The notes: generated from the letters alone by a model not told the origin. DNA of 64,000 nucleotides from Deltaproteobacteria bacterium (GCA_017644045.1 JAEPMI010000004.1:142014-206013), one strand, 5' to 3'; shown: positions 2,668 to 45,032, counted from the first letter of the stretch. Numbers and translations are program-made.

Positions 2668-2739
2668 CGCCGGCCTTATAGCTCGCCGAACCGAAAAGTG
2701 CTGCCGGCCGGCCGCTGTGTCCTCTAACCTCCCCCCGAA

Positions 2740-3915
2740 GTGCGCTATCTCTACGCGGACTCGACGCCATTCCCCTTCGCCTTCGACTTCTTGGCGGGGC
2801 TGGAGCGGCTGCTCCTGCACGGAGGCCGCATCGCGGCGCTGCAGGCGGAGATCGAGCAGCTCGAGACCGAGCGCGAGATGGACGCGGAGATCACCGCCCG
2901 TGCCCTCGAGGGCGTGGACCGCTGGGTCGAGGAGGCCAAGACGGCGCTCCAGACCGCGGACGTGGCCGCGGACGACGCCGGGCCGCTCTCGGAGAGCCTC
3001 TCCGAGCGCCTGCAGAAGCTGGTGGACCAGTTGGCCGGAGAGACGGAGGCCGCCGAGCAGGCGCGCCTCCGGCGAGAGAACGGCGCAGCGCACGATCAGT
3101 CCGTCGCTCACCGCCGCGTCATGCGCGACGAGCTCCAGACGCTCTTCCTCCAGACCGAGCTCGGCGCGCAGCCGAGCCAGACGGTGATTCGCCTTCGCGA
3201 GTCCGACTACGGCTTCACGGTCACGCGCGCCTTCCCAGGCGACGTGAAGGTGGACTACCTCATCGCGGAGGACGGCGTCCCCGATTGGGACGCGAAACGC
3301 ACCGTCGCTTCCGTCGCCGGAGCGATGGAGGTGCAGGTGGGGATGAAGAAGAAGTTCCTCCGGCGCGACATGACGCGCGAGCTCGTGCGCATCGGCGACC
3401 TGATCGTGACCGAAGCGCGGCTGCTCCCCAGCTCCGCCGAGGTCCGGCTGGAGAAGAAGCCAGGGAGCAAGAAAGCGCCGCTGCTCCTCGAGCTCTCGCG
3501 CGACGGTGAAGCGGTCGACGTGACCATCGAGCGCGAGAGCGACGACGGGATGACCATGTTCCCCGCGGTCCCCTCGGACGCCGAGAAGCTCGAGGGACTC
3601 TGGGAGTCGCTGGAGGAGACGGCGCAGCGTGCGTTCGCTGCTCGCGCGAGCGTGGCAGCGGTGCGGGTCGACGGGCACGACGTGCTCGCGGAGGGGCATG
3701 CGCTGCTGGCGATCGATCGCATCGGGCGCGCGTTCGCGCCGGTGGTTCGCGAGCTCGCGACGCGAACGCCGAACGATCACGAGTTGACGCTCAAGGTCGA
3801 GGGCCAGGACGGCAAGCGCGAAGAGCGCTACATCCGGCGCCGCGACCTGCACGCGCTGCTCGAAGAAGCGGGCACGGCCGCAGTCGAGCGGCTCGGCTAC
3901 CTGACCGCGCTCTGA
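2740..3915 (+). CDS. hypothetical protein (coiled-coil N-terminus)
   Basis: ORF 2740..3915 has strong GC3 bias and a protein-like composition. The opposite-strand ORF here is only the spurious extension of the ligase ORF. No family recognised. Confidence 0.7.
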   Translation: MRYLYADSTPFPFAFDFLAGLERLLLHGGRIAALQAEIEQLETEREMDAEITARALEGVDRWVEEAKTALQTADVAADDAGPLSESLSERLQKLVDQLAGETEAAEQARLRRENGAAHDQSVAHRRVMRDELQTLFLQTELGAQPSQTVIRLRESDYGFTVTRAFPGDVKVDYLIAEDGVPDWDAKRTVASVAGAMEVQVGMKKKFLRRDMTRELVRIGDLIVTEARLLPSSAEVRLEKKPGSKKAPLLLELSRDGEAVDVTIERESDDGMTMFPAVPSDAEKLEGLWESLEETAQRAFAARASVAAVRVDGHDVLAEGHALLAIDRIGRAFAPVVRELATRTPNDHELTLKVEGQDGKREERYIRRRDLHALLEEAGTAAVERLGYLTAL

Positions 3916-4042
3916 GGTCTCAGAGCCTCGGGCAGCGAGCCTCTGCGCCCCGCCCCGAACGCGACCCGGCTTCGGTGACGACCACTGACCTACATCTCAC
4001 CTGGCAGCCGTCACCGGCCAACGATCGCCACCGCCTAGCGCG

Positions 4043-5116
4043 TCACTCGCATGCGAGCCGCTCTTCGCCTTCTCCGGGTGTCAGCCGCTGGCCGCTCGCC
4101 TCGAGCACGTCCGCAAGCGGGCAGCCGGGCAAGCCCATGATGTCCGCGTACCTCCACAGCACGGAGGGCTGGGACGACGTGTCCATGCCGTAGACCATGC
4201 AGATGAATCGTCTGGTACTGGGGTGGAGACCAACGCTCGACCATAGGCGCGAGACCGCTGCGTTCCCGCCTCGGTGAAGGGCGTCGACGCCGCCATTGCA
4301 GACCACCGCGGCGCTCTCGGTGACCGAGAGAACTCTTTCAAAAACAGCAAAAAACCCTTGGATGAGCGCCGCGATCGCCTGGTCGTCGCTGGCCACCAGC
4401 GTGCCTCGCCACTCGTCTGCCGTGAGTTGGAGGTCGAAGTCGACCTGCTGGCCCATCGTCTCGGCATAGACTCTCCGCAAATCGCTCTCGACCTCTTGGC
4501 GGCGCGCATCGACTTCGGCTGGGGCCACCTCGGGAGCGATGACGCTCAGCGCAACCGACAGCCGCAGCGCGTCCCCGTCTTCGGTGAGCTTCACCGTCAG
4601 CAGCTGCGGCTCGAATCCACGGGGGTCGGAGTCCAGATTGTGTTCGAACCACTCGATCGCGGTCGACTCCAGGCGAGCCCACATGACCACCCCGTCGAAC
4701 TCGCTGGCGCAGTGACCGGGCGTCGGCTCATCCGGGCTCGTCTCGCGGTTGGAGAAGTACCCGGGCCCCACCTCGTGGCCAGCGAGCACGGTGCCACCGC
4801 TGGGCTCGACGATGGTCGTGTGGTCGTCCGGGTCGCTCGTGCTCATCGTCACTGCCAGCCGTTCGACCGACTGCTGGAGCCACCCGGCAGCGAAGAGCTC
4901 GTCGGTGAGGCGCACAAAATGCGCATGGCGGCGCGATGCCCTCATGCCCTCCAAATCATAGAAAAAGGTGAGCGGTGCGTCGGCTAGCCAGGCGGTGATG
5001 TGTGGCTCGCAGTCCGTTGCCATGGCGCCGACACCGCTCTTCACGGCGGTCGGGACCTCGGGGCTCGCGCAGGCGGCGAGCGAGAGGAGGAGCGCCAGGG
5101 AACGAGGGGCGAGCAT
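4043..5116 (-). CDS. hypothetical lipoprotein
   Basis: ORF 4043..5191. Internal Met at 5116 gives MLAPRSLALLLSLAAC with a lipobox (LAAC). The 3' third (about 4190-4400) is visibly lower in GC. Confidence 0.7.
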   Translation of the reverse strand: MLAPRSLALLLSLAACASPEVPTAVKSGVGAMATDCEPHITAWLADAPLTFFYDLEGMRASRRHAHFVRLTDELFAAGWLQQSVERLAVTMSTSDPDDHTTIVEPSGGTVLAGHEVGPGYFSNRETSPDEPTPGHCASEFDGVVMWARLESTAIEWFEHNLDSDPRGFEPQLLTVKLTEDGDALRLSVALSVIAPEVAPAEVDARRQEVESDLRRVYAETMGQQVDFDLQLTADEWRGTLVASDDQAIAALIQGFFAVFERVLSVTESAAVVCNGGVDALHRGGNAAVSRLWSSVGLHPSTRRFICMVYGMDTSSQPSVLWRYADIMGLPGCPLADVLEASGQRLTPGEGEERLACE

Positions 5117-5298
5117 CCGCGATAGGTGGAGGATGTGCCCAAACAACGCAACCCCATGAGGCCGGTCGCGCCGTCCATCGCAGACAGGCAAGAGCGTGGA
5201 GCCGTCGACCCAGTCTGTTGGGCGTGAAGCGACGCCTCGGCTGCCTGACCGCGCTCCGAGCTCGGCGGAACAAACGGTTCCGTCGCTTGACGCGCACT

Positions 5299-5325
5299 CA
5301 ATAGCGAACTAGCAATTCACTATTG
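5299..5325. promoter_or_regulatory. candidate TetR operator (imperfect palindrome)
   Basis: CAATAGCGAA-ctagcaa-TTCACTATTG. The arms match 9/10 as an inverted repeat. AT-richer than its surroundings. Ends 10 nt before the tetR ATG. Confidence 0.45.
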
Positions 5326-5335
5326 AGAGACTCGG

Positions 5336-5956
5336 ATGGCCCAACAGCTCAAAGAAGAGGTGCGCGAGCGGATGACCTCCGCCGCCGAGGTGGTGTTCGC
5401 CGAGGCCGGCTACGGCGGCGCGACGATGGCCGCCATCGCTCGTGAAGCCGGAATCTCGACCGGCAACCTCTACCGTTACTTCGGTAGCAAGGACGACCTC
5501 TTCTACGCCGTCTTCACCGACGCCTTCGCGGACGAGCTGCTCGACCTGTTGCAGCGCCGGGTCGCTTCGTTGGTGCAGGCGAGCGACCTGACCGAGCTGG
5601 ACGCGGACGCCGCGGCCGACGGGGAGGCGCTTCTCTCGTTCTGGGTCGCGCACCGCGAGAAGGTCATCGTGCTGCTCGATGGGGCGGCCGGCTCCCGCTT
5701 CGAGGGCTTCGCGCGGTCGTTCGTCGACGCCCTGATGAAGCCGACGGCCGCGCACCTCCGGGAGCGCGTCGGGAACGAGCGGCTGCCGGCCATGGTGCGC
5801 TTCACGCTGGAGAACGTCTTCGCGAACACGGTGCGGACCATCGTCGCGATCCTCCGCCGCTACCGAACCGAACGCCACATCCGGGAGGCCTTCCAGGCCT
5901 TCTGGAGTTACCAGCTCGCAGGCCTGGCGGGCCTGCAGGAATGGGTGACCGAATGA
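5336..5956 (+). CDS. TetR/AcrR family transcriptional regulator
   Basis: N-terminal HTH AAEVVFAEAGYGGATMAAIAREAGISTGNLYRYFGSKDDLF is typical of TetR_N. Confidence 0.9.
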   Translation: MAQQLKEEVRERMTSAAEVVFAEAGYGGATMAAIAREAGISTGNLYRYFGSKDDLFYAVFTDAFADELLDLLQRRVASLVQASDLTELDADAAADGEALLSFWVAHREKVIVLLDGAAGSRFEGFARSFVDALMKPTAAHLRERVGNERLPAMVRFTLENVFANTVRTIVAILRRYRTERHIREAFQAFWSYQLAGLAGLQEWVTE

Positions 5957-7344
5957 CCGATCTCTGGAGACTGGATGCCACCGCGCAGGCCGCGTTGGTT
6001 CGCGATGGAGAGCTGAGTGCGCTCGAGCTCGTCGACGCGGCGATCGCACGCATCGAGGCGCTCGAGCCCGAGCTGCACGCGCTCTCGAGCCACGATTTCG
6101 ACGCCGCCCGCGAGCGAGCACGCGGTGAGCTCGGCGGCCCGCTCGCCGGCGTGCCCTTCCTGGCGAAGGACCTGCTCGGTGTTCCCGGGCTGCCGCACCG
6201 CTTCGGCTCGCGACTCTTCGCGCAGCAGGTCGCCAACGAGCACAGCCCCTACAGCGCGGCGCTCGACGCCGCGGGTTTGAACGTCCTCGGCAAGACCACC
6301 ACGTCCGAGCTCGGCCTGATGGGCAGCACGGAGACGCTCCTCGAGGGTGCGACCCACAACCCGTGGGACCTCTCGCTCTCGGCGGCCGGGTCCTCCGGCG
6401 GCTCCGCAGCGGCGGTCGCGGCGCGGTTGGTGCCCATGGCGCACGCCAGCGACGGCGGCGGCTCCATTCGGATCCCGGCAGGGGTGAACGGCGTCTTCGG
6501 TCTCAAGCCGAGCGGCGAGCGTATGCGCACGAGTGGCCCCGGCGACATGAACGGCCTGGTCATCGATCACTGCGTGAGCGTGTCGGTGCGGGACAGCGCC
6601 TTGCTCCTCTCGCTCACCGAGCGGGACGATGGTCCGCTCACCCCAGTGGGCTTCGTCGATGGACCGGTGCCCCGGCGCATCCGGATCGGGGCGTACCACC
6701 AGACCCTCATGGGCGCCGAGCCGAGCGCGGCCAACCGGGAGGCCTTCGAGAAGACGGTCGCGCTCTGCGAGTCACTCGGTCACGAGGTGGTCGTCACCGC
6801 TCCGCCGCCCATCGCCGGGCCGGACGTGAGCCGCGCCTTCTTCACGATGGCCGGTTTCCAGCTGACGCAGCTCTCCGCGATGGTCGCTCCCATGCTCGGG
6901 CGACCGCCCGGTCCCGACGAGCTCGAGCCGCTCACCCTGGCGCTCATGGCCTGGTTCGCGGAGCAGCCCGCGGACGCCTTCGAGAAGGCCACGGCGACGC
7001 TGACGACGGCCGCCGCCGCGATGACGGACTATCTCGCCGAGGTCGACGTCACCCTCTGCCCGACCATCCCGGTCGACCCCTACCCGCTCGGGTCCCTGAC
7101 GCCGACGATGAGCCGCGAGGCGTTCCTCGAGCGAACCGAGGCGCTCGCGGGCTACACGCCCATCCACAACTTCGCCAAGGCACCAGCCATGAGCGTGCCC
7201 CTCTTCCAGAGCGCGGCGGGCCTCCCCGTCGGCAGCCACTTCGCCGCGAGCCCGGGCGCCGAAGCGACGCTGCTCTCGCTCGCCTACGAGCTCGAGGCGG
7301 CCGCGCCCTGGGCGGACCGACTCCCACCGCTCATCGCCGACTGA
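5953..7344 (+). CDS. amidase (amidase-signature family)
   Basis: AS-family motifs GKTTTSELG and GGSSGGSAAAVAA...DGGGSIRIPA. ATG at 5953 overlaps the tetR stop (ATGA). An alternative in-frame ATG lies at 5941. Confidence 0.9.
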   Translation: MTDLWRLDATAQAALVRDGELSALELVDAAIARIEALEPELHALSSHDFDAARERARGELGGPLAGVPFLAKDLLGVPGLPHRFGSRLFAQQVANEHSPYSAALDAAGLNVLGKTTTSELGLMGSTETLLEGATHNPWDLSLSAAGSSGGSAAAVAARLVPMAHASDGGGSIRIPAGVNGVFGLKPSGERMRTSGPGDMNGLVIDHCVSVSVRDSALLLSLTERDDGPLTPVGFVDGPVPRRIRIGAYHQTLMGAEPSAANREAFEKTVALCESLGHEVVVTAPPPIAGPDVSRAFFTMAGFQLTQLSAMVAPMLGRPPGPDELEPLTLALMAWFAEQPADAFEKATATLTTAAAAMTDYLAEVDVTLCPTIPVDPYPLGSLTPTMSREAFLERTEALAGYTPIHNFAKAPAMSVPLFQSAAGLPVGSHFAASPGAEATLLSLAYELEAAAPWADRLPPLIAD

Positions 7345-11178: not shown

Positions 11179-12123
11179 TCAGAGCGGGAGGACGTGCTGG
11201 GCGTCCAGCCGGTACAGGCTGGTGACGAAGTCGTCTTCGTAGGCCTCGCTCGCTTCGAAGTGGCCGTAGACCTGGACGCCGTGGTTCTCGAGGTTGCGGA
11301 CGCGCTCGGCCATGCGCTCGGGGACACGGACGACGATGGCCTCGTTGATCTCCGGCGGGGCGCCGAAGCAGCAGCTCCAGAGCGACTGGACCAAGAGGTA
11401 CTGGTTCTCTTCGAGCGCGATGAGGTAGCCCCACGCCTTGGCGTTCTTGCCGTCGAGCGCGTTGATCGGACCCGGGAGGTTCATGCCCTCTTCGTAGGGG
11501 AAGCCCTTGAGCAGCGGCCACGCGGCGTCAGCCCACTCACCTTCGGGCTCCTCCATGGTCGCGCCCTCGACCTGGCCGCCGAGGGTCGTGATCAGCGTGC
11601 GCGCCATCATGCGCGCCTGACCGGCGATGGCCTGCTCCTGGAGTGAGCTGAGGCCGCGGTTGCCGTCGGCCTCGGCCGCGCGCGCGACGATGGTGCCGAT
11701 GGCGCCCATGGCCTCCTCGCGACGGCTCTCGGGATCACCGATGCCGGCCTCTTCCAAGACCGCGGCCATCTCGCCAGAGATCTGCTCCTCCTCGACCATC
11801 TCGTCCGAGGCAGCCGTGCGGATCACGCCTTCGAGAATGGTCGCGAGCTTGCCCTGAGTGGAGTCGTCCTCGTCTCCGCGCTCGGCGCTGAAGGTGGTCG
11901 GCTGCCGGAAGGCGCCGGTCATCTCGTCGGTGCACCAGAGCGGCGCGGTCATCAGCGCACCGAGGCCCACGAAGAGCGCGCCGCGCATGACCTTGTCGAA
12001 GGCGCTCCGCTTCACCTTCGGCGCCTCTGCCGCCGGCTCGCTGGCCTTCACGGCCTCGGGCGCTTCCGGCTCGGGCGCGTCCGCCTTCTTCTTCTTCGAC
12101 TTCTTCTTCTTGTCGTCGGCCAT
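11179..12123 (-). CDS. DUF3299-like protein, partner of the ABC transporter
   Basis: Internal Met MADDKKKKSKKKK of ORF 11179..12798 (cat 12121-12123, in frame). One TM segment. C-terminal block GKNAKAWGYLIALEENQYLLVQSLWSCCFGAPPEINEAIVVRVP resembles DUF3299 as I recall it. Lies 2 nt after the permease stop. Confidence 0.7.
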   Translation of the reverse strand: MADDKKKKSKKKKADAPEPEAPEAVKASEPAAEAPKVKRSAFDKVMRGALFVGLGALMTAPLWCTDEMTGAFRQPTTFSAERGDEDDSTQGKLATILEGVIRTAASDEMVEEEQISGEMAAVLEEAGIGDPESRREEAMGAIGTIVARAAEADGNRGLSSLQEQAIAGQARMMARTLITTLGGQVEGATMEEPEGEWADAAWPLLKGFPYEEGMNLPGPINALDGKNAKAWGYLIALEENQYLLVQSLWSCCFGAPPEINEAIVVRVPERMAERVRNLENHGVQVYGHFEASEAYEDDFVTSLYRLDAQHVLPL

Positions 12124-12125
12124 GG

Positions 12126-13712
12126 TCAGCTCGTCGGTCGCAGGTTCTCGGCGACGTCGGTCGCGTAAGCCTTCCACGCGGGCCACAAGCCGGCCAGCGC
12201 CCCCGCGAGGACCACCAGGAGCACCACCAGCCCTTCGGTCGGCACCACGTCGAGTGCATTCGGCCGGAAACCGGCGGCGGACTCCACCCGGCCGGCGGCC
12301 AGGGCCACCAGGGCGTGGCCCATCAACACGCCGAGCCCCGCGCCGATGGCCGTGATGAGGGCGGCCTCGATGACCACGGACCCCAGCACCCACCGTCGCG
12401 GGGCGCCGATGGCGCGGAGGATCGCGACCTCGCGCCGACGCTCGTTCATCGAGTTGTAGAGGGCGATGAGCACCGAGAGGAGCCCGACGACGATGACCAG
12501 GATCGACACCAGGAGGAAGAGCACGTCCACGCTCCCGACGATGTCGAAGAGGTGGCCGATCTCCTCGTGCACGTCCGCGACCTGGATCTCCGGCCGCCGG
12601 TTCAACCGCGAGAGCAGCATCACCTTGTGCACGCCCGGTCGTGGGAACACGAGCACCGCGCTCAACCCCGGCTCGGTGGTCCCCGGAAGGAGCGCGCCGC
12701 CGCGGTGGTCCTCGATGGAGAAGAAGCTGTCGAGCGGGATCAGCACGAGTCGGTCCACCGGTGTGTCGGTGGGCTTCAGGATCCCGACCACTTCCCACAG
12801 GTGCTCGTGGTCGTGCGCGCGCCCGCCCTCGACCCCGTGGGTCGGCTCGATGCGATCACCGACGCGCACCCCGAGCGTGCGCGCGACCTCCGCCCCGACC
12901 ACCGCCTCGTAGTGCGTCTCGTGCTCGTGGTGCTCGTCCTCGTCGTCGACGTGCTCGTCCTCGTCGTGGTCGTGCTCGTCCTCGTCCTCGTCGAGCTCGT
13001 CCTCGTCGTCGTGATGCTCGTCCTCGTCGCCGTCGAGCTCGTCCTCGTCGTCGTGGTGCTCGTCCTCGTCGTCGTGGTGCTCGGCCTCGTCGTCGTGGTG
13101 CGCGGCCGACTCCGACCCCGACTCAAACTCCGACTCCGGCCCAAACTCCTCTTCCTCTGCGCCCTCTGTGGCTCCGTGACTCTGTGCGAGGCCCGGCCCC
13201 CCGCCAGATGCAGACGCCGCGGCCGACGCCGACTCCAGCTCCGCCCCGAGCTCGCGCAGCACGTCCTCGAGCCGCTCCCGATCGAAACGAAACGGCCGCC
13301 CCTCCGCGAGCTTCTCGGCCCCCTCGCCTTCCGGATGCGGCGAGCGCCCGGCGAAGAACGCGTCCGTCGTCGCGACCACCCGGAACCCGCGGAACGAATC
13401 ACCGACCGCGTAGGGCACCGCGAGCGCGACCGAGTCGTCCTCCTCGAGCTCCCACCACACGCGCATGGGCATCAGGCCAGGCGCGTCGTCGACGTGATAG
13501 ACGGCGTTGAGCACCAGCTGCAGCGCCGAGCCGGGCGCGCCGACGACGATCTGGTAGCCCCGACCGGGCGCGTCGTAGTGCCGGTCGAGCGCCCCCTGCA
13601 GGATTAGGATGGCGGTGACCAACATCGTCCCGAGCGCCACGCTCAGCGCCGTGAGCGTCGAGCTCAGCCCGCGCAGGCGCAGGTTGCGCAGCACCAAGCC
13701 GAAGAGACTCAC
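12126..13712 (-). CDS. ABC transporter permease, FtsX/MacB type, with a His/Asp/Glu-rich periplasmic insertion
   Basis: Part of ORF 12126..14393. GTG at 13712-13710 overlaps the ATPase stop (GTGA) and gives VSLFGLVLRNLRLRGLSSTLTALSV, a typical MacB/FtsX N-terminus. The C-terminal FtsX helices include RRREVAILRAIGA. Confidence 0.85.
   Translation of the reverse strand: MSLFGLVLRNLRLRGLSSTLTALSVALGTMLVTAILILQGALDRHYDAPGRGYQIVVGAPGSALQLVLNAVYHVDDAPGLMPMRVWWELEEDDSVALAVPYAVGDSFRGFRVVATTDAFFAGRSPHPEGEGAEKLAEGRPFRFDRERLEDVLRELGAELESASAAASASGGGPGLAQSHGATEGAEEEEFGPESEFESGSESAAHHDDEAEHHDDEDEHHDDEDELDGDEDEHHDDEDELDEDEDEHDHDEDEHVDDEDEHHEHETHYEAVVGAEVARTLGVRVGDRIEPTHGVEGGRAHDHEHLWEVVGILKPTDTPVDRLVLIPLDSFFSIEDHRGGALLPGTTEPGLSAVLVFPRPGVHKVMLLSRLNRRPEIQVADVHEEIGHLFDIVGSVDVLFLLVSILVIVVGLLSVLIALYNSMNERRREVAILRAIGAPRRWVLGSVVIEAALITAIGAGLGVLMGHALVALAAGRVESAAGFRPNALDVVPTEGLVVLLVVLAGALAGLWPAWKAYATDVAENLRPTS
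12910..13103 (-). repeat. imperfect tandem GAC/GAG/CAC codon repeats encoding a His/Asp/Glu-rich tract inside the permease gene
   Basis: The plus strand shows reiterated gtgctcgtcctcgtcgtc(gtg) units. They encode HHDDEAEHHDDEDEHHDDEDELDGDEDEHHDDEDELDEDEDEHDHDEDEHVDDEDEHHEHETH. Confidence 0.85.
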
Positions 13713-14377
13713 GAGTCCACCTCCAGCGGCCCGTCGTCCAGGTCGAGCACCCGCTCGAAGCGGTCGCGCACCCTCGGCTCGTGGGTCACCAGCAGGAGCG
13801 TCGCGCCGGCTTCGGCCACCACCTCGTCGAGCAGGTCGAGCACCTCGGCCGAGCGGCGCTCGTCCAGGCTCGCCGTCGGCTCGTCCGCGAGCACCACCGC
13901 CGGCTTCGTCACCAACGCGCGCGCGATGCCCACCCGCTGCTGCTCGCCCACCGAGAGCGTCCCGGGCCGCGCGTCGAGCCGGTGCCCGAGCTCGACCCGC
14001 TTCAGGATCGCCTCGGCCTTCGACCGCGCGTCGGCGCGCCCCAGCCCCGCGAGGCTCGCGGCCAGCGCCACGTTCTCCATCGCACTCAGCCCCTGGAGGA
14101 GCTGCGCGGTCTGGAAGACGTAGCCGATCTTCTCGGCCCGGAAACGATCGCGAGCCGCCTCCTTCAGAGCGAAGAGGTCGGTCTCGCCGTGCCGGACCCG
14201 GCCCTGGGTCGGGCTCACGATCCCGGCGAGGACATGCAGCAGAGTGGTCTTCCCGCTCCCCGATCCACCGACCACGCATGCGCGCTCGCCCGCCGCCAGA
14301 TGGAGACTGCCCAGCGCGAGTGTCTCCGACCCGGCCTGGCGGCCGAAGGCGACCTCGAGATCGTCCGCGCGGATCAC
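13709..14377 (-). CDS. ABC transporter ATP-binding protein (LolD/MacB-like)
   Basis: Walker A GGSGSGKT, signature LSVGEQQR, Walker B VVLADEPT. GTG start. Confidence 0.92.
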   Translation of the reverse strand: MIRADDLEVAFGRQAGSETLALGSLHLAAGERACVVGGSGSGKTTLLHVLAGIVSPTQGRVRHGETDLFALKEAARDRFRAEKIGYVFQTAQLLQGLSAMENVALAASLAGLGRADARSKAEAILKRVELGHRLDARPGTLSVGEQQRVGIARALVTKPAVVLADEPTASLDERRSAEVLDLLDEVVAEAGATLLLVTHEPRVRDRFERVLDLDDGPLEVDS

Positions 14378-14460
14378 GCCCTCGGCGTGGCACGGTCGGC
14401 GGCTCCGATCAACGGGCGACCGCGATTGACGTTGGCCAGCCGGGACGGCAGAACGTCGCC

Positions 14461-15261
14461 ATGACCATGGACGCCATCGCCCTCCTGAAGCTCTCGCTGG
14501 ACCAGCTCGGGAGCGCTCTCCGCCTCGAGGACGAGACCGACGACACCACGATCTTCCGGGCGATGGGCCGTTCCCTCGAGGCCCGCGCCCTCGACGACTG
14601 CACCACGTTGAACCTGGCGTTCCGCTTCGACACCCCGGAATCCACCCTCGGCTCGGTGCTGCGCCGCGACCTGGGCGAGCTCATCGAGGCCCACGACGAC
14701 GAGCGCGGCGTCTTCGTCTATCCGAGCGTCGCGCACCTCCAGGCGACCGACTACGAGGGCGCCCTCGAGGAGCTCGGCGAAGGCGGCATGTGGGTCGCGA
14801 TTCCGGAGGCCGAGGACGCCCGCGTCGGAGCGGGCGACGCGCTCGGTGTCTTCCAGGGACTGGCGGGGGGTCTCGGCCCCGATCTGATGGGTCAGGTCCA
14901 GCAGATGGTCGGCAACATGCCCAAGGGCGACGACGGCCAGCCCCAGCTCCCCGCCGGCCTCGCGGAGTTCGCCAAGGGATTTCTCGAGAACCCGGAGATG
15001 CGCGGGATGATCGAGGGAATGGCGCAACAGGTCCTCGGCGGTGGCGGGGTCCCCGACGACCTGCTCGGGAAGGCCCAGGAGGTCGCCGAGAAGGCCACCG
15101 CGGCCAACCCGGAGCTCGCCGCTCAGGCGCAGGCGATGGCCGGTGGCTCCGACGCGATCACCGAGCTCGCTCAGAAGCTGGGTCTCGGCGCGGTCGCCCC
15201 TCCTCCCGAGTCGGACGAAGAAGAAGAGGAAGCGGAAGAGGAAGAGGAAGCGGACGACTGA
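14461..15261 (+). CDS. hypothetical acidic protein
   Basis: Internal ATG (MTMDAIALLKLSLDQLG) of ORF 13609..15261, in frame, with high GC3. The upstream part of that ORF is antisense to the ABC ATPase. The C-terminus is poly-Glu (ESDEEEEEAEEEEEADD). Confidence 0.7.
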   Translation: MTMDAIALLKLSLDQLGSALRLEDETDDTTIFRAMGRSLEARALDDCTTLNLAFRFDTPESTLGSVLRRDLGELIEAHDDERGVFVYPSVAHLQATDYEGALEELGEGGMWVAIPEAEDARVGAGDALGVFQGLAGGLGPDLMGQVQQMVGNMPKGDDGQPQLPAGLAEFAKGFLENPEMRGMIEGMAQQVLGGGGVPDDLLGKAQEVAEKATAANPELAAQAQAMAGGSDAITELAQKLGLGAVAPPPESDEEEEEAEEEEEADD

Positions 15262-15265
15262 CGCG

Positions 15266-15886
15266 TCAGTCCTTCGGGGCCTGACGAACCGCGGTGAGCG
15301 TGAGCGTCGGGAGCCGGAGCCCGGCCGACGACGCGATGAAGCCCATCACCGCCGAGGGGTGCACCAGGACCACTTCTCGCAGCTTCGGGCAATGACCGAG
15401 CTCTCGGACCACGACGTCGGTCAGTCCGGGTGGCGGCGTCTCGCCGGGGTTGAGGAGCAGTACGGCGCGATTGCCGTCGCTCACCCGGAGCTTCAGGGAC
15501 GCCGCGCCGAACGCCTGCACCAGCGAGCGCTCGCGCAGGTCGAGGATCGTCGCGCTGCCGTGCGGCGGCGTGAGCGTGTCGTTTCGCCGCTCGTCGACCT
15601 TGGAGAGGTCGCGTTCGCCGCGGACCTTGCAGCGCGGAATGCGGAGCCCGAGCGATGACGCGAGGAAGCCGATGGTCGCGCCCGGATGGACCAGCACGAG
15701 CTCTCGCATCGCTTCGACCTGTTCCGCGCCAGCCGCGATCACTTCCGCGAGCGACGCGCTCACCCGCACGTCCGCGGGAAAGACGAGCGCCACGCTCTCC
15801 GGTCTGGAGGCGGCGACCCGCTTCAGCCCATCCATGATGGACTGCTCCACCTTGGATGCGTCGACCTCGACCACCACCGAGCTCAC
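15266..15886 (-). CDS. hypothetical protein with a tandem internal duplication (weakly STAS-like)
   Basis: C-terminal 206 aa of ORF 15266..16606. GTG 15886-15884 overlaps the upstream stop (GTGA). Two ~95-aa halves share LVLVHPGATIGFLASSLGLRIP / VVLVHPSAVMGFIASSAGLRLP. Confidence 0.65.
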   Translation of the reverse strand: MSSVVVEVDASKVEQSIMDGLKRVAASRPESVALVFPADVRVSASLAEVIAAGAEQVEAMRELVLVHPGATIGFLASSLGLRIPRCKVRGERDLSKVDERRNDTLTPPHGSATILDLRERSLVQAFGAASLKLRVSDGNRAVLLLNPGETPPPGLTDVVVRELGHCPKLREVVLVHPSAVMGFIASSAGLRLPTLTLTAVRQAPKD

Positions 15887-16980
15887 GACGCTGCCCTCGC
15901 ATGACGAGCGAGATCGCCCAAGGCGCGCGCCAGCTCGGCCAGGTCTCCGGCCGTCGTCGTCGAACCGGAAGAGACCCGCACCGTGCCGGTGCGCTCCGTC
16001 CCCAGCACCCGATGAGCACTCGGCGCACAATGGAGCCCCGCTCGGACGGTCACGTCGAAGACCCGGTCCAGCATCTCCTCCACGGCGCGCGGCTCCTGGC
16101 CGGCGACCGTGAAGCTGACGACCGGGAGCGCCGGCGCGTCGGCCGAGCGACCGAGCACACGCAGACCCGCGGCGTGCACGACCTCCTCGAGCGCGCCACT
16201 GGCCGCCTCGACATCCCACGACACGCCCACGCGTGCCGCCGCACCGAGCGCGAGGATTCCCGGCAGGTTGGGGGTCCCGGCCTCGAGTCGCTCGGGGAGC
16301 ACCTCCGGCATCTCGTCGGCGGCCGCGTCGAAGCCCACGCCGCCACGCACCAGCGGCTCGAGCTCGACGCCAGGTCCGACCCCCAGCACGCCGGTGCCAG
16401 GGAGCGCGCGCAGATGCTTGTGCGCGGAGAACGCGACCAGGTCGGCGCCCAGGTCGAGCGACCACACGCCAGCGGTGGGGGCGGCGTCGAGCACCACCCG
16501 CGCCCCCAGCGCTTTCGCCAACGCGCAGAGCGCTTCGACCGGCTGGCCGACCCCGGTCACGTTCGACGAGTGACCCACGACCACCAGCCCGGTGTCGTCG
16601 ACCCACTCCGCGCGGGCCCGGTCGAGATCGATCACTCCGTCGGCATCATGCGGGAGGGTCCACGTGGGCACGCCCAGCGCGCGCGCCGGTCGGCGAGCGG
16701 CGTTGTGGAGCATCGGTCCCAACGCCACCACGCGAGGGCGGGGGCGGAGGCCGGCGATGGCCTGATTGAGCGCGGCGGTCGCTCCCGCGTGGAAGGTCAC
16801 CGTCATGGCCGGAAGGAGCGCGCCGACCGCACGACGGGCACGGTCGACCTCGTCGGCGGCCGCTCGCTGGAGGCGATGGAGACCCCGACCGGGGTTGCCC
16901 AACTCGGCGCCACGAAGCGCACCCTCCAACGCGACGGGCGCACGCGGCAGCGAGGTGGCCGCGTGATCGAAGTAGCTCAC
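15883..16980 (-). CDS. aminotransferase class V-fold PLP enzyme (cysteine desulfurase / selenocysteine lyase-like)
   Basis: 365 aa. GHSSNVTG and the PLP-lysine context FSAHKHL. GTG start overlaps the upstream stop (GTGA at 16977-16980). Confidence 0.85.
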   Translation of the reverse strand: MSYFDHAATSLPRAPVALEGALRGAELGNPGRGLHRLQRAAADEVDRARRAVGALLPAMTVTFHAGATAALNQAIAGLRPRPRVVALGPMLHNAARRPARALGVPTWTLPHDADGVIDLDRARAEWVDDTGLVVVGHSSNVTGVGQPVEALCALAKALGARVVLDAAPTAGVWSLDLGADLVAFSAHKHLRALPGTGVLGVGPGVELEPLVRGGVGFDAAADEMPEVLPERLEAGTPNLPGILALGAAARVGVSWDVEAASGALEEVVHAAGLRVLGRSADAPALPVVSFTVAGQEPRAVEEMLDRVFDVTVRAGLHCAPSAHRVLGTERTGTVRVSSGSTTTAGDLAELARALGDLARHARAAS

Positions 16981-17270
16981 GCGGCCAACTCCCGCGCCAC
17001 GGCGAGCGCCGTCTCCTCGGCGCGATCCCGGTGAGCCAATCGCATGGTGAAACGGACCCGTCGCTCGCCGACGATCCCGGTGAGCAGGAAGAACCCCGGC
17101 CGGTCGTAGCGTGCGAAGGGCTTCGGCAGCGAGTCGAGGACCATCAACGTGCCCGAGCCATCGAGTCGCTCGAGCGCGTCCCGCCGAAGGCCATCGGCGA
17201 GCTCGATTTCGACGACCCGCTCGCCACCGAGACAGTCGCGCATCAGTACGACTTCGGGGTCGGGGCTCAT
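16977..17270 (-). CDS. small hypothetical protein (97 aa)
   Basis: Internal Met MSPDPEVVLMRD of ORF 16977..17657. Its ATG overlaps the upstream stop (ATGA at 17267-17270). GC3-rich. Confidence 0.6.
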   Translation of the reverse strand: MSPDPEVVLMRDCLGGERVVEIELADGLRRDALERLDGSGTLMVLDSLPKPFARYDRPGFFLLTGIVGERRVRFTMRLAHRDRAEETALAVARELAA

Positions 17271-17914
17271 TGTCGCCTGGCGACGAACTCGCAGCGGTCG
17301 GCGCCCGCAGCGCGGCAAACGATCTCTTCGGCGGCGAAACCGGCGTCGTTGCCGAAGAGCTCGGCGTAGTACGTCGGGTTCAGCGCCGGGCGGTTCGTGA
17401 TGTCGCCGTGGTAGAGCAGATTCATGAGCCCGGCGACGCCGCCGGTGGCGAGGAAGCACACGCCGCCGAGCTCGGACTCGCCGTGCTCGGCCAGGTAGCC
17501 CGTCGACTCGTAGCTGTCGGCGACCGCGATGCGCATCTCGTCCTGGGAGAGGTCCTCGACGCTCCATCGCCCCCAGCCGAGCGCGTTGACCACCGCGACG
17601 ATCCCGTACATCCAGTCGGCGCGTTCCTCGATCATCGGCGCGACGACCGCCTCCCACTCCTGCGAGAGCATGATGCCGCCGAAGGTGTTGAACGCGCAGA
17701 TGTGGCCGGCTTCGACCAGCGCCGCTCGCGCCTTCGCGAGCGACGCATCGCCTTCATCTCGCGCGTGGTGCAGGTACGCGTAGGAGACGGCGTTGTAGTA
17801 GGGCGCGTAGTGCCGCGTGAGGTAGAGGCCGAAGGCGGGGATGAGCCCCTCTTCGTTGCCGGCGAGCGGAAGCCCCGCGACCGCCTCGGTGACCGCCCTG
17901 CCGTCGACGCTCAT
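17267..17914 (-). CDS. V4R (4-vinyl reductase-type) domain protein
   Basis: C-terminal 215 aa of ORF 17267..18571, starting MSVDGRAV. The ATG overlaps the upstream stop (ATGA at 17911-17914). C-terminal V4R-like block GGVCFLATGGVAGLMN...CRAAGADRCEFV. Confidence 0.7.
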   Translation of the reverse strand: MSVDGRAVTEAVAGLPLAGNEEGLIPAFGLYLTRHYAPYYNAVSYAYLHHARDEGDASLAKARAALVEAGHICAFNTFGGIMLSQEWEAVVAPMIEERADWMYGIVAVVNALGWGRWSVEDLSQDEMRIAVADSYESTGYLAEHGESELGGVCFLATGGVAGLMNLLYHGDITNRPALNPTYYAELFGNDAGFAAEEIVCRAAGADRCEFVARRQ

Positions 17915-18423
17915 CGGTTCACCGCCACGGTGAAGGCGCAGTCGTCGGCGCCCATGGCGAAACACCGGCTCTCGGTGACCACGACCGCTGCGGGGTCGAC
18001 CGAGTGTGCGACGGCGAAGGCCCCCGCGATGAAGCCGGCCGGGAAGAAGCACGCCGGCGTCTCTCTCGGTCCACGAGTCGCGAGCCACCCCATGGCGTAG
18101 TGCGAGTGCGGTGAGACGGCCTCTCCCCCGTCCGGCCCCAAGGCCCCGAGCGAGAGCGCTCCGAACCCGAGCTCGGCGAAGAGCTGCTCGGCCCGCTGGA
18201 GCAAATCGGCCCCCGTGGCTCCGTCGGCGATGGCTCGAAGCTGCGGGGAGACGGTGTCGACCGCGGCCTTCGTCAGCACCCCCGGGGCCGCCGAGCCCAT
18301 GCCGTCCTCGATCGCCTCCTGCAGCTGGCAGTTGTAGAAATGACAGTGAAAAACCAGGGACTGACCCCCCAGATGGGTGGTCCCCTTTTCCAATTCTGTC
18401 AGATAATTGAATCCCCCACTCAT
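17911..18423 (-). CDS. V4R (4-vinyl reductase-type) domain protein
   Basis: ORF 17911..18423. FHCHFYNCQLQEAIED...PACFFPAGFIAGAFAVAH...ESRCFAMGADDCAFTV matches V4R domain hallmarks (paired Cys near the C-terminus). Confidence 0.7.
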   Translation of the reverse strand: MSGGFNYLTELEKGTTHLGGQSLVFHCHFYNCQLQEAIEDGMGSAAPGVLTKAAVDTVSPQLRAIADGATGADLLQRAEQLFAELGFGALSLGALGPDGGEAVSPHSHYAMGWLATRGPRETPACFFPAGFIAGAFAVAHSVDPAAVVVTESRCFAMGADDCAFTVAVNR

Positions 18424-44953: not shown

Positions 44954-45032
44954 GGAGCCGGACTTTGGGGAATGGGCCCGACGGATGCAACGCTGTTCGT
45001 TGGAACGAGATGTGAATGAAAGGAGGGACGAG

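What the first reader, a model, noticed from the sequence alone, without database searches (positions are those of the whole stretch)
11179..14377. MacB/FtsX-type ABC transporter + DUF3299-like partner whose permease carries a His/Asp/Glu metal-sponge insertion
The operon is ATPase (GTG start), permease (GTGA overlap 13709-13712) and a DUF3299-like protein (2-nt gap). The permease periplasmic loop contains about 65 residues that are almost entirely His, Asp and Glu (HHDDEAEHHDDEDEHHDDEDELDGDEDEHHDDEDELDEDEDEHDHDEDEHVDDEDEHHEHETH). That composition is typical of divalent-metal capture. From memory (to be verified), DUF3299 genes usually travel with FtsX-type ABC pairs, and a comparable zinc-starvation-induced operon in Pseudomonas aeruginosa (PA4063-PA4066) has a separate His-rich periplasmic protein. 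Here the His-rich module appears fused into the permease. I see no AT-rich Zur/Fur-like palindrome in the 83-bp upstream region (14378-14460), so metal regulation is unproven.
Basis: partly seen in the sequence, partly recalled or inferred. Interest (0 to 1): 0.65.

Follow-up and report, generated by a model that had tools for sequence, protein, structure and literature searches.

The report
Zrg-like ABC permease with histidine-rich loop
A three-gene membrane pump related to bacterial zinc-starvation (Zrg) systems carries a floppy histidine- and acid-rich tail on its outward-facing domain; this probably catches metal ions, and similar tails recur across the pump family, which points to direct metal handling.

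Summary
The minus strand carries an ABC ATPase (13709-14377), a four-helix FtsX/MacB-type permease (12126-13712) and a membrane-anchored DUF3299 protein (11179-12123). Permease residues 205-267 are 9 copies of EHHDDED, encoded by a 21-bp tandem repeat. They lie in a disordered loop between TM1 and TM2, so they face the periplasm.

The closest known system is ZrgABCDE / PA4063-PA4066. The permease aligns over both halves with the permease of a Phaeobacter operon (Fur-family regulator, ZrgA, ATPase, permease, DUF3299). The third protein's only strong structural match is PA4066.

It is not a fusion of ZrgA. No ZrgA was found in the window or in 89 related loci. The tract is a local repeat expansion in a hypervariable loop (3-325 aa). 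His-rich inserts recur with different repeat units in 37 of 120 close homologues and 31 of 144 diverse representatives. Asp/His residues (D105, H292, D320, H336) are conserved, including in Zrg-type permeases. Relatives sit beside COG0523, Fur-family and TonB-receptor genes, and share a palindrome, TGCAACNNNGTTGCA. The window has none of these, so its regulation is unproven.

Verdict: a new variant of a known kind. Metal binding, which metal, and transport direction are inferred, not shown.

The parts
13709..14377 (-). ABC ATPase subunit, 222 aa, GTG start; LolD/FtsE/MacB-NBD-like
   Evidence: PF00005 E 2.2e-32. The best NCBIfam similarities (LolD, DevA, FtsE, MacB NBD) are all below their curated cut-offs.
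12126..13712 (-). Type VII (FtsX/MacB-type) ABC permease, 528 aa. TM1 is residues 15-50, the periplasmic domain 51-380, and TM2-TM4 381-516.
   Evidence: FtsX E 4.8e-17 and MacB_PCD E 5.4e-9. AlphaFold model mean pLDDT 85. Foldseek matches to LolC/LolE/MacB at E 4e-13 to 1e-10. BLASTP against the Phaeobacter Zrg-operon permease gives 9e-33 and 7e-12.
12912..13208 (-). Insertion in periplasmic loop 1 (about residues 169-267), predicted to be disordered. The Phaeobacter Zrg-type permease has only about 22 residues at this position.
   Evidence: Mean pLDDT is about 42-57 over residues 161-260, with runs below 50 from 173 to 257. The pairwise alignment breaks between residues 120 and 268. This loop is 3-325 aa long in 120 homologues.
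12912..13103 (-). His/Asp/Glu tract, residues 204-267: nine 7-residue units of EHHDDED type, encoded by a 21-bp tandem repeat
   Evidence: TRF finds period 21, 8.8 copies, 87% matches at 12918-13101. Unit listing and composition. It is unique in the window.
12801..12851 (-). Conserved periplasmic motif IEPTHGVEGGRAHDHEH (residues 288-304), containing invariant H292 and a near-invariant His at 300/302
   Evidence: H292 and H300 are invariant in 61 sequences. H292 is invariant and H302 is 91% conserved in 64 sequences that include two Zrg-type permeases.
11179..12123 (-). Long-form DUF3299 protein, 314 aa. It has a Lys-rich N-terminal tail, a TM anchor (residues 41-59), a four-helix domain (89-180) and a C-terminal OB-like barrel (about 214-313; DNA 11185-11484).
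   Evidence: PF11736 E 2.7e-4, 21.5 bits against a cut-off of 22. 13 of 22 homologues hit PF11736. The model's only PDB match at E<=1e-3 is 4hsp (PA4066, DUF3299), E 2.7e-7. A profile of the family finds the syntenic proteins of L001 and L003 at 1e-32 to 1e-44; the L001 protein passes the PF11736 threshold here, and L003 has a PF11736 hit on record.
14378..14460 (.). 83-bp divergent intergenic region upstream of the ATPase gene; no recognisable promoter or operator
   Evidence: No sigma-70-like site. No inverted repeat in the intergenic part. No TGCAACNNNGTTGCA-type site.

Best explanation
This is a ZrgA-less relative of the Zrg / PA4064-PA4066 core module. A dimeric ABC ATPase powers a four-helix type VII (mechanotransmission) permease. 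The large periplasmic domain of the permease works together with a membrane-anchored DUF3299 partner.

The nine EHHDDED repeats form a disordered, strongly anionic, multi-His tether on the membrane-distal part of the periplasmic domain. I propose that it acts as a low-affinity, high-capacity antenna that concentrates a divalent metal. Zn(II) is most likely by analogy; Co, Ni or Mn are not excluded. The metal would be held next to a conserved Asp/His constellation (D105, H292, H300/302, D320, H336) that is shared with Zrg-type permeases. On this view the tract does, in cis, the accessory job that the His-rich loop of ZrgA does in trans.

Shown here: the gene architecture, the topology, homology to Zrg-type permeases and to PA4066, the repeat origin of the tract, and its recurrence and hot-spot distribution in the family.

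Inferred: metal binding, which metal, hand-off to the conserved site, and the direction of transport. Direction is disputed even for Zrg/PA4064-65: zinc uptake in Vibrio, pyochelin-cobalt export proposed in P. aeruginosa.
For: 1. Architecture and topology.

2. Specific kinship with Zrg-type permeases. There is 32% identity over residues 268-524, which includes the periplasmic domain, and 31% over residues 6-120, to the permease of the Phaeobacter operon (Fur-family regulator, ZrgA [PF10986, 5e-49], ATPase, permease, DUF3299). By sequence, PDB LolC/MacB chains match mainly the C-terminal region around the transmembrane helices.

3. The third protein matches PA4066 (4hsp) and nothing else at E<=1e-3.

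4. Phaeobacter ZrgA carries a loop (EEHEDHADEHGHEEHADDEHTHDHGHEDHEKHDDAEHEEHEHEEHDSDHH...) of the same composition as the window tract. No ZrgA was found in the window or in the 89 related loci searched.

5. His-rich inserts recur at the same loop with different repeat units (EEHHAD, HEDE, HDHADDG, EHGDEHD...). 37 of 120 close homologues have 4 or more His there. 31 of 144 representatives, each standing for a cluster at 50% identity, have His-rich inserts, mostly at a second hot spot just after H336.

6. D105, H292 and D320 are invariant, and H302 (91%) and H336 (97%) nearly so, in 64 permeases from four phyla, including two Zrg-type ones.

7. Metal-linked neighbours in relatives:
- A Bacteroidota plasmid cluster with COG0523, MerC, FolE and a Fur-family regulator, whose permease has 24 His.
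- A COG0523 gene directly upstream in a Myxococcales MAG.
- Divergent TonB-dependent receptors in L005, L015 and L134.
- A shared palindrome, TGCAACNNNGTTGCA: 5 of its 6 occurrences in 984 kb lie within 400 bp upstream of the ATPase gene, and the 6th precedes the COG0523 gene.

8. Literature. zrgABCDE and PA4063-66 are Zur-regulated, and the His-rich loop of ZrgA adds low-affinity Zn sites (PMC9820375, PMC9817125, PMC11481552, PMC8561739).
Against: - Nothing in the window ties this operon to metal status. There is no Fur/Zur gene, no COG0523, no ZrgA and no copy of the family palindrome. The neighbours are unrelated (GH92, DciA, V4R proteins).
- In the closest relatives (L132, L133) the gene divergent from the operon is a GerE/LuxR-type regulator, not a Fur-family one.
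- The loop is hypervariable. 44 of 120 close homologues have no His in it and many are Ala/Pro-rich, so the tract cannot be essential to the machine.
- The repeat copies are 87% alike, which suggests a recent slippage expansion.
- The ZrgA His-rich region is dispensable in vivo (PMC9820375).
- Acidic residues outnumber His by about 3 to 1.
- The known type VII ABC transporters recovered as structural matches here (MacB, LolCDE, FtsEX) are not importers, so 'uptake' would need a new mechanism.
Confidence: 0.55

Rival explanations
1. The tract is a selectively neutral low-complexity expansion. Replication slippage of a 21-bp repeat occurred in a surface loop that tolerates any insert. The transporter works the same with or without it, and the tract says nothing about the substrate.
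For: The loop ranges from 3 to 325 aa. It is Ala/Pro-rich or holds folded inserts in other lineages. Relatives at 69-86% identity in the aligned segments (P0003, P0004, P0005) have loops of only 30-36 aa with 2-5 His. The tandem repeat is 87% matched, i.e. young. The ZrgA His-rich loop is dispensable in vivo.
Against: His is four times more frequent in the loop than in the rest of the protein across 120 homologues (0.107 against 0.025). His-rich tracts with unrelated repeat units arose repeatedly at two specific loops, in 22-31% of family members. In 18 loci, mostly Verrucomicrobiota, a His-rich lipoprotein gene is present, usually next to the permease gene. Neutral slippage would not be expected to converge on His plus Asp/Glu so often.
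Confidence: 0.2
2. The system is an exporter or protective device rather than an acquisition system. It would expel a metal or metallophore complex from the periplasm or inner membrane, as proposed for PA4064-PA4065 and pyochelin-cobalt. The His/acid tract would buffer or sense excess periplasmic metal.
For: The fold is that of MacB/LolCDE mechanotransmission transporters; MacB expels substrates outward from the periplasm and LolCDE extracts lipoproteins from the inner membrane. The mBio 2024 study proposes export for PA4064-65 (PMC11481552). No substrate-binding protein of the classical kind is encoded here.
Against: No MacA-type adaptor or outer-membrane factor appears among the called genes within 10 kb. 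Relatives associate with uptake-type genes (TonB-dependent receptors, COG0523, Fur-family repressors). Genetics in V. cholerae and V. parahaemolyticus link Zrg to growth under zinc limitation.
Confidence: 0.2
3. The tract has a role unrelated to transition metals. With a net charge of about -42 it might be a polyanionic spacer, a Ca/Mg or mineral-surface binder, or a pH-responsive element, and the transporter might handle a non-metal substrate.
For: 42 of the 64 residues are Asp or Glu. The window has no metal-related neighbours.
Against: Paired His residues recur in most units. Family-wide, the inserts are defined by His rather than by acidity alone; examples are HDHDHDHDH, HHHHHHH and AHDHAHDH. 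The conserved His residues and the Zrg kinship point to transition metals.
Confidence: 0.05

Closest known systems
ZrgABCDE (Vibrio cholerae, V. parahaemolyticus) and PA4063-PA4066 (Pseudomonas aeruginosa): Zur-regulated zinc-starvation operons
   Same: The core is the same and in the same order: ABC ATPase, then a 4-TM FtsX/MacB_PCD permease, then a DUF3299 protein. The permease aligns over both halves with a Zrg-operon permease (E 9e-33 and 7e-12). The third protein's best structural match is PA4066. A periplasmic His/Asp/Glu-rich disordered tract is part of the system in both.
   Different: There is no ZrgA/PA4063 (PF10986/DUF2796) and no ZrgD. The His-rich tract sits in the permease loop instead of in ZrgA. 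The DUF3299 protein is a 314-aa membrane-anchored long form with an extra four-helix domain and a 'LWSCCFG' motif, where PA4066 has 'GACIHVPPPP'. No Zur or Zur box was detected in the window. The host is a Myxococcota MAG rather than a proteobacterial pathogen.
MacB / LolCDE / FtsEX (type VII mechanotransmission ABC transporters)
   Same: [quoted passage not shown] Foldseek E 4e-13 to 1e-10. The ATPase subunit is separate, as in LolCDE and FtsEX.
   Different: By sequence, mainly the C-terminal region around the transmembrane helices matches. No MacA adaptor, TolC-type, LolA/B or EnvC partner gene is nearby. None of the NCBIfam equivalog cut-offs is reached. Conserved periplasmic His/Asp residues and His-rich inserts are not, to my knowledge, features of those families.
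His-rich loops of periplasmic zinc proteins (ZnuA, ZrgA/PA4063)
   Same: Disordered, His plus Asp/Glu-rich, of variable length, and facing the periplasm. In ZrgA the loop supplies extra low-affinity Zn sites.
   Different: Here the tract is part of the membrane permease itself and consists of a near-perfect 7-residue tandem repeat. Its metal binding is untested.

Membership tests
ZrgABCDE / PA4063-PA4066 zinc-starvation operon | ABC ATPase plus FtsX/MacB_PCD permease, homologous to ZrgB/ZrgC (PA4064/PA4065) | tested here: met
   Pfam hits. BLASTP 9e-33 and 7e-12 to the permease of a Phaeobacter operon that contains ZrgA. PA4065 and ZrgB themselves were not available for direct comparison.
ZrgABCDE / PA4063-PA4066 zinc-starvation operon | A DUF3299 protein (ZrgE/PA4066) encoded downstream of the permease | tested here: met
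   Foldseek to 4hsp (PA4066), E 2.7e-7, the only PDB hit at E<=1e-3. PF11736 at 21.5 bits, just under the cut-off of 22. Transitive homology to the syntenic L001 protein, which passes PF11736.
ZrgABCDE / PA4063-PA4066 zinc-starvation operon | A separate periplasmic ZrgA/PA4063 protein (PF10986, DUF2796) | tested here: not met
   tblastn with Phaeobacter ZrgA finds nothing in the window or in 89 related loci. phmmer against the ORFs of the 86 loci then held gave no hit better than E 0.5. The precomputed Pfam list for genes within 10 kb shows no PF10986.
ZrgABCDE / PA4063-PA4066 zinc-starvation operon | Zur (Fur-family) control / induction by zinc starvation | tested here: inconclusive
   No Fur-family gene in the 64 kb. 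No palindrome or promoter in 14378-14460. The family palindrome TGCAACNNNGTTGCA is absent from the window. Expression cannot be tested with these tools.
MacB sensu stricto (MacAB-TolC tripartite efflux) | [quoted passage not shown] | tested here: met
   Model elements H15-50, then periplasmic 51-380, then H381-424, H439-480 and H491-516. Foldseek match to MacB chains.
MacB sensu stricto (MacAB-TolC tripartite efflux) | N-terminal NBD fused to the permease, and a MacA-type adaptor gene in the operon | tested here: not met
   The ATPase is a separate 222-aa gene. No HlyD/MFP or outer-membrane-factor family appears among the called genes within 10 kb. The NCBIfam MacB model scores 25 bits against a cut-off of 966.
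LolCDE lipoprotein-release system | Scores above the LolC/LolE/LolD equivalog thresholds | tested here: not met
   lolCE 44.7 bits against 362; LolD 194 bits against 308.
DUF3299 (PF11736) | Pfam gathering score reached by the protein itself | tested here: not met
   21.5 bits against 22. 13 of 22 homologues match at E<0.01, best 1.5e-5. Structure and synteny support homology despite the formal miss.

The most novel reading that the evidence does not exclude
The permease itself may be the metal receptor. On this reading the conserved periplasmic Asp/His constellation (D105, H292, H300/302, D320, H336) is a transition-metal site. The recurrent His-rich loops at two adjacent hot spots feed that site. 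ATP-driven mechanotransmission then releases or passes on the ion, perhaps to the DUF3299 partner. This would be a way of handling metal ions with an ABC machine that needs no soluble binding protein. It would also give a mechanistic basis for the disputed function of ZrgBC / PA4064-65.
Probability: 0.25. Interest if true: 0.8.

Novelty: new variant of a known kind. Interest (0 to 1): 0.55.

Why it matters
The function of the Zrg / PA4063-66 systems is disputed. Genetics in Vibrio point to zinc uptake, whereas P. aeruginosa work proposes pyochelin-cobalt export by a MacB-type pump. The role of the permease's periplasmic domain and of DUF3299 is unknown.

This window, and the family survey it prompted, supply independent comparative evidence that the permease's periplasmic domain deals with metal directly:
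- His-rich tracts have been recruited repeatedly into two of its loops.
- In 18 loci, mostly Verrucomicrobiota, a small His-rich lipoprotein gene is present, usually next to the permease gene.
- A handful of Asp/His residues are conserved from Myxococcota to Zrg-type Alphaproteobacteria.

That yields concrete point mutants to test in V. cholerae or P. aeruginosa. It also shows that the core module is widespread well outside Proteobacteria: 1,406 clusters at E<=1e-30, with the best genome matches in Myxococcota, Planctomycetota and Verrucomicrobiota.

Tried and rejected
- Foldseek against afdb50, intended to place PA4065 (UniProt Q9HWW3 or Q9HWW4) directly. The library was unavailable. I used an annotated Phaeobacter ZrgA-containing operon as the Zrg reference instead.
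- Metagenome scan with the DUF3299 profile, to collect upstream regions of close relatives. The closest relatives were on short contigs with little or no upstream sequence, and the loci with full upstream flanks were only about 30% identical, so it was little use for footprinting.
- Signals in 14378-14460: sigma-70 promoter, terminator, inverted repeat, Zur/Fur-like box. Nothing found.
- The family palindrome in the window. No exact match; the single 3-mismatch hit, at 44985, is at the chance level.
- ZrgA, Fur-family, TonB-receptor-associated X/Y, and Verrucomicrobiota His-lipoprotein homologues in the window. None, apart from one weak TonB-receptor-like hit at 52194-52364.
- The idea that the insertion is a fused ZrgA domain. 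Rejected: the tract is a disordered tandem repeat with no PF10986 similarity.
- Strict complementarity, i.e. ZrgA absent if and only if the permease is His-rich. Rejected: many operons have neither.
- GCAAC...GTTGC matches inside ATPase genes (L045, L057, L072). Dismissed as the coding sequence of the conserved QQRVA motif.
- Three-dimensional clustering of the conserved Asp/His residues. Could not be checked, because model coordinates are not exposed.
- Rfam and tRNA scans of the window. Empty.


Full report
**1. What is in the sequence**

Three co-directional genes on the minus strand form a tight operon.
- The ATPase is 13709-14377 (222 aa, GTG start).
- The permease is 12126-13712 (528 aa). 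Its GTG start overlaps the ATPase stop as GTGA.
- The third gene is 11179-12123 (314 aa). Its ATG lies two bases after the permease stop.

The operon is bounded downstream by a convergent GH92 glycosidase gene. Upstream it is bounded by an 83-bp gap and then a divergent 266-aa gene of unknown function. The window is about 70% G+C. The identical permease is on record from a MAG labelled Deltaproteobacteria. The nearest relatives are labelled Sandaracinus, Polyangiaceae, Myxococcales or Myxococcota.

**2. The tract**

Permease residues 204-267 read AHHDDEA, EHHDDED, EHHDDED, ELDGDED, EHHDDED, ELDEDED, EHDHDED, EHVDDED, EHHEHET, then H. That is 15 His, 23 Asp and 19 Glu in 64 residues. The DNA is a 21-bp tandem repeat of 8.8 copies at 87% identity.

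Nothing similar occurs in any frame elsewhere in the window. Against the family's background composition the probability is about 1e-45.

**3. Topology**

An AlphaFold model built on 61 homologues has a mean pLDDT of 85, and above 90 for most of the chain outside the insert. It shows:
- TM1 at residues 15-50;
- a mixed alpha/beta domain at 51-380;
- three further helices at 381-424, 439-480 and 491-516.

Foldseek matches LolC, LolE and MacB at E 4e-13 to 1e-10. The short Arg-rich N-terminus and the Arg-rich TM2-TM3 connector (ERRREVAILRAIGAPRRW) fit a cytoplasmic location. The region between TM1 and TM2 is therefore periplasmic, as in all type VII ABC transporters.

The insert, roughly residues 169-267, is predicted to be disordered: mean pLDDT is about 42-57 over residues 161-260. 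In Pfam MacB_PCD coordinates it lies at about position 115-119 of 207. From my knowledge of MacB structures I infer this is the membrane-distal (Sabre) part. I did not verify that by superposition.

**4. The third gene**

Pfam DUF3299 scores 21.5 bits against a cut-off of 22, and 13 of 22 homologues match at E<0.01.

The model has four parts: a disordered Lys-rich N-terminal tail, a TM helix (41-59), a four-helix domain (89-180) and a C-terminal beta-barrel. Its only PDB match at E<=1e-3 is 4hsp, at E 2.7e-7. The PDB entry title names 4hsp as PA4066, a DUF3299 protein, and PMC8561739 says the same.

A profile of this protein's family finds a homologue in most of the 86 related loci then held, usually next to the permease gene. 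One of these, the L001 protein, passes the PF11736 threshold. The gene is therefore a divergent, long-form, membrane-anchored DUF3299.

**5. Relation to Zrg / PA4063-66**

The literature gives the following.
- Vibrio zrgABCDE encodes ZrgA (DUF2796, a His-rich periplasmic Zn-binding protein), an ATPase, a 4-TM permease with a MacB-like periplasmic domain, ZrgD, and ZrgE (DUF3299).
- PA4063-PA4066 is the P. aeruginosa counterpart. Both operons are Zur-regulated (PMC9817125, PMC9820375, PMC8561739, PMC11481552).

A tblastn search of plasmids with the window permease found 80 records. The Phaeobacter gallaeciensis locus reads Fur-family regulator, ZrgA (PF10986, E 5e-49), ATPase, permease, DUF3299. 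The window permease aligns with that permease at E 9e-33 (residues 268-524 against 142-412, including the periplasmic domain) and at E 7e-12 (residues 6-120 against 5-119). In between, Phaeobacter has about 22 residues where the window has about 147.

This is a closer kinship than with the PDB LolC/MacB chains, which match by sequence mainly in the C-terminal region around the transmembrane helices.

Phaeobacter ZrgA contains a loop, EEHEDHADEHGHEEHADDEHTHDHGHEDHEKHDDAEHEEHEHEEHDSDHHDGH, of the same character as the window tract.

**6. Not a fusion**

No ZrgA homologue was found in the window or in the 89 related loci searched. The tract has no similarity to the ZrgA fold. It is a tandem-repeat expansion in a loop that is hypervariable across the family.

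In 120 close homologues the loop is 3-325 aa long (median 24). It has 10 or more His in 16 proteins, 4-9 in 21, 1-3 in 39 and none in 44. Relatives at 69-86% identity in the aligned segments (P0003-P0005) have loops of 30-36 aa. P0002, at 78% identity over the full length, has 138 aa built on a different unit, EEHHAD/EEHHDD. Other lineages use HEDE, HDHADDG, EHGDEHD or HEGEEHA.

Some homologues instead carry folded inserts with sub-threshold similarity to the ExbD/TolR domain.

It remains reasonable as a functional analogy.

**7. A family trait**

A profile search of 1.84 billion cluster representatives found 1,406 clusters at E<=1e-30. Of the 144 listed representatives not already seen, 31 carry His-rich inserts. 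Most of these lie at a second hot spot immediately after the conserved His equivalent to H336.

The permease on a Chondrinema litorale (Bacteroidota) plasmid has 24 His, with such an insert after 'SVWEIH'.

In 18 loci, mostly Verrucomicrobiota and typically with short permeases of about 400 aa, there is a small lipoprotein gene, usually between the permease and DUF3299 genes. The protein has an N-terminal His-rich stretch and a PPHGG motif, and matches no Pfam family.

Across 64 permeases from Myxococcota, Planctomycetota, Verrucomicrobiota and two Zrg-type Alphaproteobacteria, D105, H292 and D320 are invariant. H302 is 91% conserved and H336 is 97% conserved (compare). Taken together, these results suggest that the periplasmic domain itself handles a metal.

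**8. Regulation and neighbours**

In relatives the module sits next to metal-homeostasis genes:
- Chondrinema: COG0523 (cobW, E 2e-57), MerC, FolE and a Fur-family repressor.
- Polymorphobacter: a TonB-dependent receptor, two Fur-family repressors and MerC.
- A Myxococcales MAG (L069): a COG0523 gene directly upstream.
- Sandaracinus and Polyangiaceae MAGs (L005, L015, L134): a divergent TonB-dependent receptor with two conserved genes of unknown function.

A palindrome, TGCAACNNNGTTGCA (one mismatch allowed), occurs six times in 984 kb of related loci. Five occurrences lie within 400 bp upstream of the ATPase start (L017, L047, L069, L078, L134). The sixth lies upstream of the L069 COG0523 gene. 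Only 3.6% of the sequence lies in such upstream windows. This looks like the operator of a Fur-family regulator. I cannot assign it to Zur rather than to another Fur-family regulator such as Mur.

The window has none of this. There is no Fur-family gene, no COG0523, no palindrome and no recognisable promoter. Its closest relatives have a GerE/LuxR-type regulator gene upstream, which the window lacks.

**9. Mechanism**

I consider the most likely reading (0.55) to be a Zrg-like, periplasm-facing, metal-handling type VII ABC system. In it the EHHDDED repeats act as a tethered, low-affinity, multi-site metal antenna beside a conserved Asp/His site. This is the cis equivalent of the accessory His-rich loop of ZrgA.

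The direction of transport is unresolved, as it is for the reference systems.

Rivals:
- a neutral slippage product in a permissive loop (0.2);
- an export or buffering role (0.2);
- a polyanion role unrelated to transition metals (0.05).

**10. Verdict**

The Zrg analogy is right at the level of homology. 'Fusion' is wrong, and metal function is inferred rather than shown.

The finding is a new variant of a known kind. The literature searches I ran, on combinations of FtsX, MacB, periplasmic domain, His-rich/histidine-rich, zinc, Zur and DUF2796, returned only papers on ZrgA, and nothing on His-rich permease loops or the conserved periplasmic Asp/His residues.

Noticed in passing
L069:3949-3963 and 5289-5303; L134:5160-5174; L047:4942-4956; L017:5181-5195; L078:5118-5132 (no copy in the window): The palindrome TGCAACNNNGTTGCA is concentrated upstream of the ATPase gene of this operon family in Myxococcota and Planctomycetota, and upstream of a COG0523 gene in L069. 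There are 6 hits in 984 kb, and 5 of them lie within 400 bp upstream of the ATPase start. It is a candidate operator for a Fur-family (possibly Zur) regulator. L015 has a longer variant, GATGCAAACTGATTGTGTTTGCATC.
   Followed up: partly
e.g. L064:3246-3740, L041:7171-7641, L067:3539-4012, L081:7223-7714: A family of small lipoproteins (about 150-185 aa) has a lipobox, an N-terminal His-rich stretch, the motif PPHGGxxVxLGxExxHxE, and a C-terminal FxFPxGN. The gene usually sits between the permease and DUF3299 genes, and homologues occur in 18 loci (mostly Verrucomicrobiota, also L056 Burkholderiales). It matches no Pfam family and is not related to ZrgA by sequence.
   Followed up: partly
L136:4411-5751 (Chondrinema litorale plasmid NZ_CP111051.1) and its neighbours at 861-6184: A Bacteroidota cluster encodes COG0523, MerC, an ATPase, FolE, a Fur-family repressor, a permease and DUF3299. 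Its permease has 24 His in an insert at a different loop, after 'SVWEIH', which is equivalent to the position after H336 of the window protein. The annotated DUF3299 protein gave no Pfam hit at E<=0.001.
   Followed up: partly
P0007, P0014, P0018 (loop 1 of the permease); L005:2526-6874, L134:404-4995, L015: In some Sandaracinus and Polyangiaceae relatives the same loop holds one or two folded inserts with sub-threshold similarity to ExbD/TolR (18-21 bits against a cut-off of 25.4), flanked by His-rich linkers. The operons in L005 (which encodes P0014), L015 and L134 (which encodes P0010) are divergent from a TonB-dependent receptor gene plus two conserved genes of unknown function (52% identity between L005 and L134).
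   Followed up: partly
window 11179-12123 (residues 243-262 of the DUF3299-like protein): The motif LLVQSLWSCCFGxPPxxxEA is invariant in the Myxococcota long-form DUF3299 proteins. It aligns with 'LLVPYYGACIHVPPPPSNQ' of PA4066: one Cys is kept, and the His is replaced. The extra four-helix domain and TM anchor have no match in the PDB.
   Followed up: partly
window 14461-15261 (+): The gene divergent from the operon encodes a 266-aa protein with no Pfam family and an acidic C-terminal tail (SDEEEEEAEEEEEADD). It is 60% identical to a gene in L133. There, and in L132, a GerE/LuxR-type regulator gene lies between it and the ATPase gene. That regulator is missing from the window.
   Followed up: partly
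window 15883-18423 (-): A cluster encodes two V4R-domain proteins (weak or faint Pfam hits on record), a 97-aa gene of unknown function and an Aminotran_5 (cysteine desulfurase-like) gene. It lies upstream of the divergent gene. Function not examined.
   Followed up: no
L135:2970-3428 (Deinococcus radiodurans plasmid MP1): A 152-aa annotated 'hypothetical protein' lies upstream of the ATPase-permease pair. It shows a DUF3299-like pattern (FFVLTRQPMSTCPFC...GRLEIG...LYAERV) but has no Pfam hit. It may be an unrecognised DUF3299 relative placed before the ATPase rather than after the permease.
   Followed up: no
window 1-64000: There are no tRNA genes and no Rfam family at gathering threshold anywhere in the 64 kb.
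   Followed up: yes
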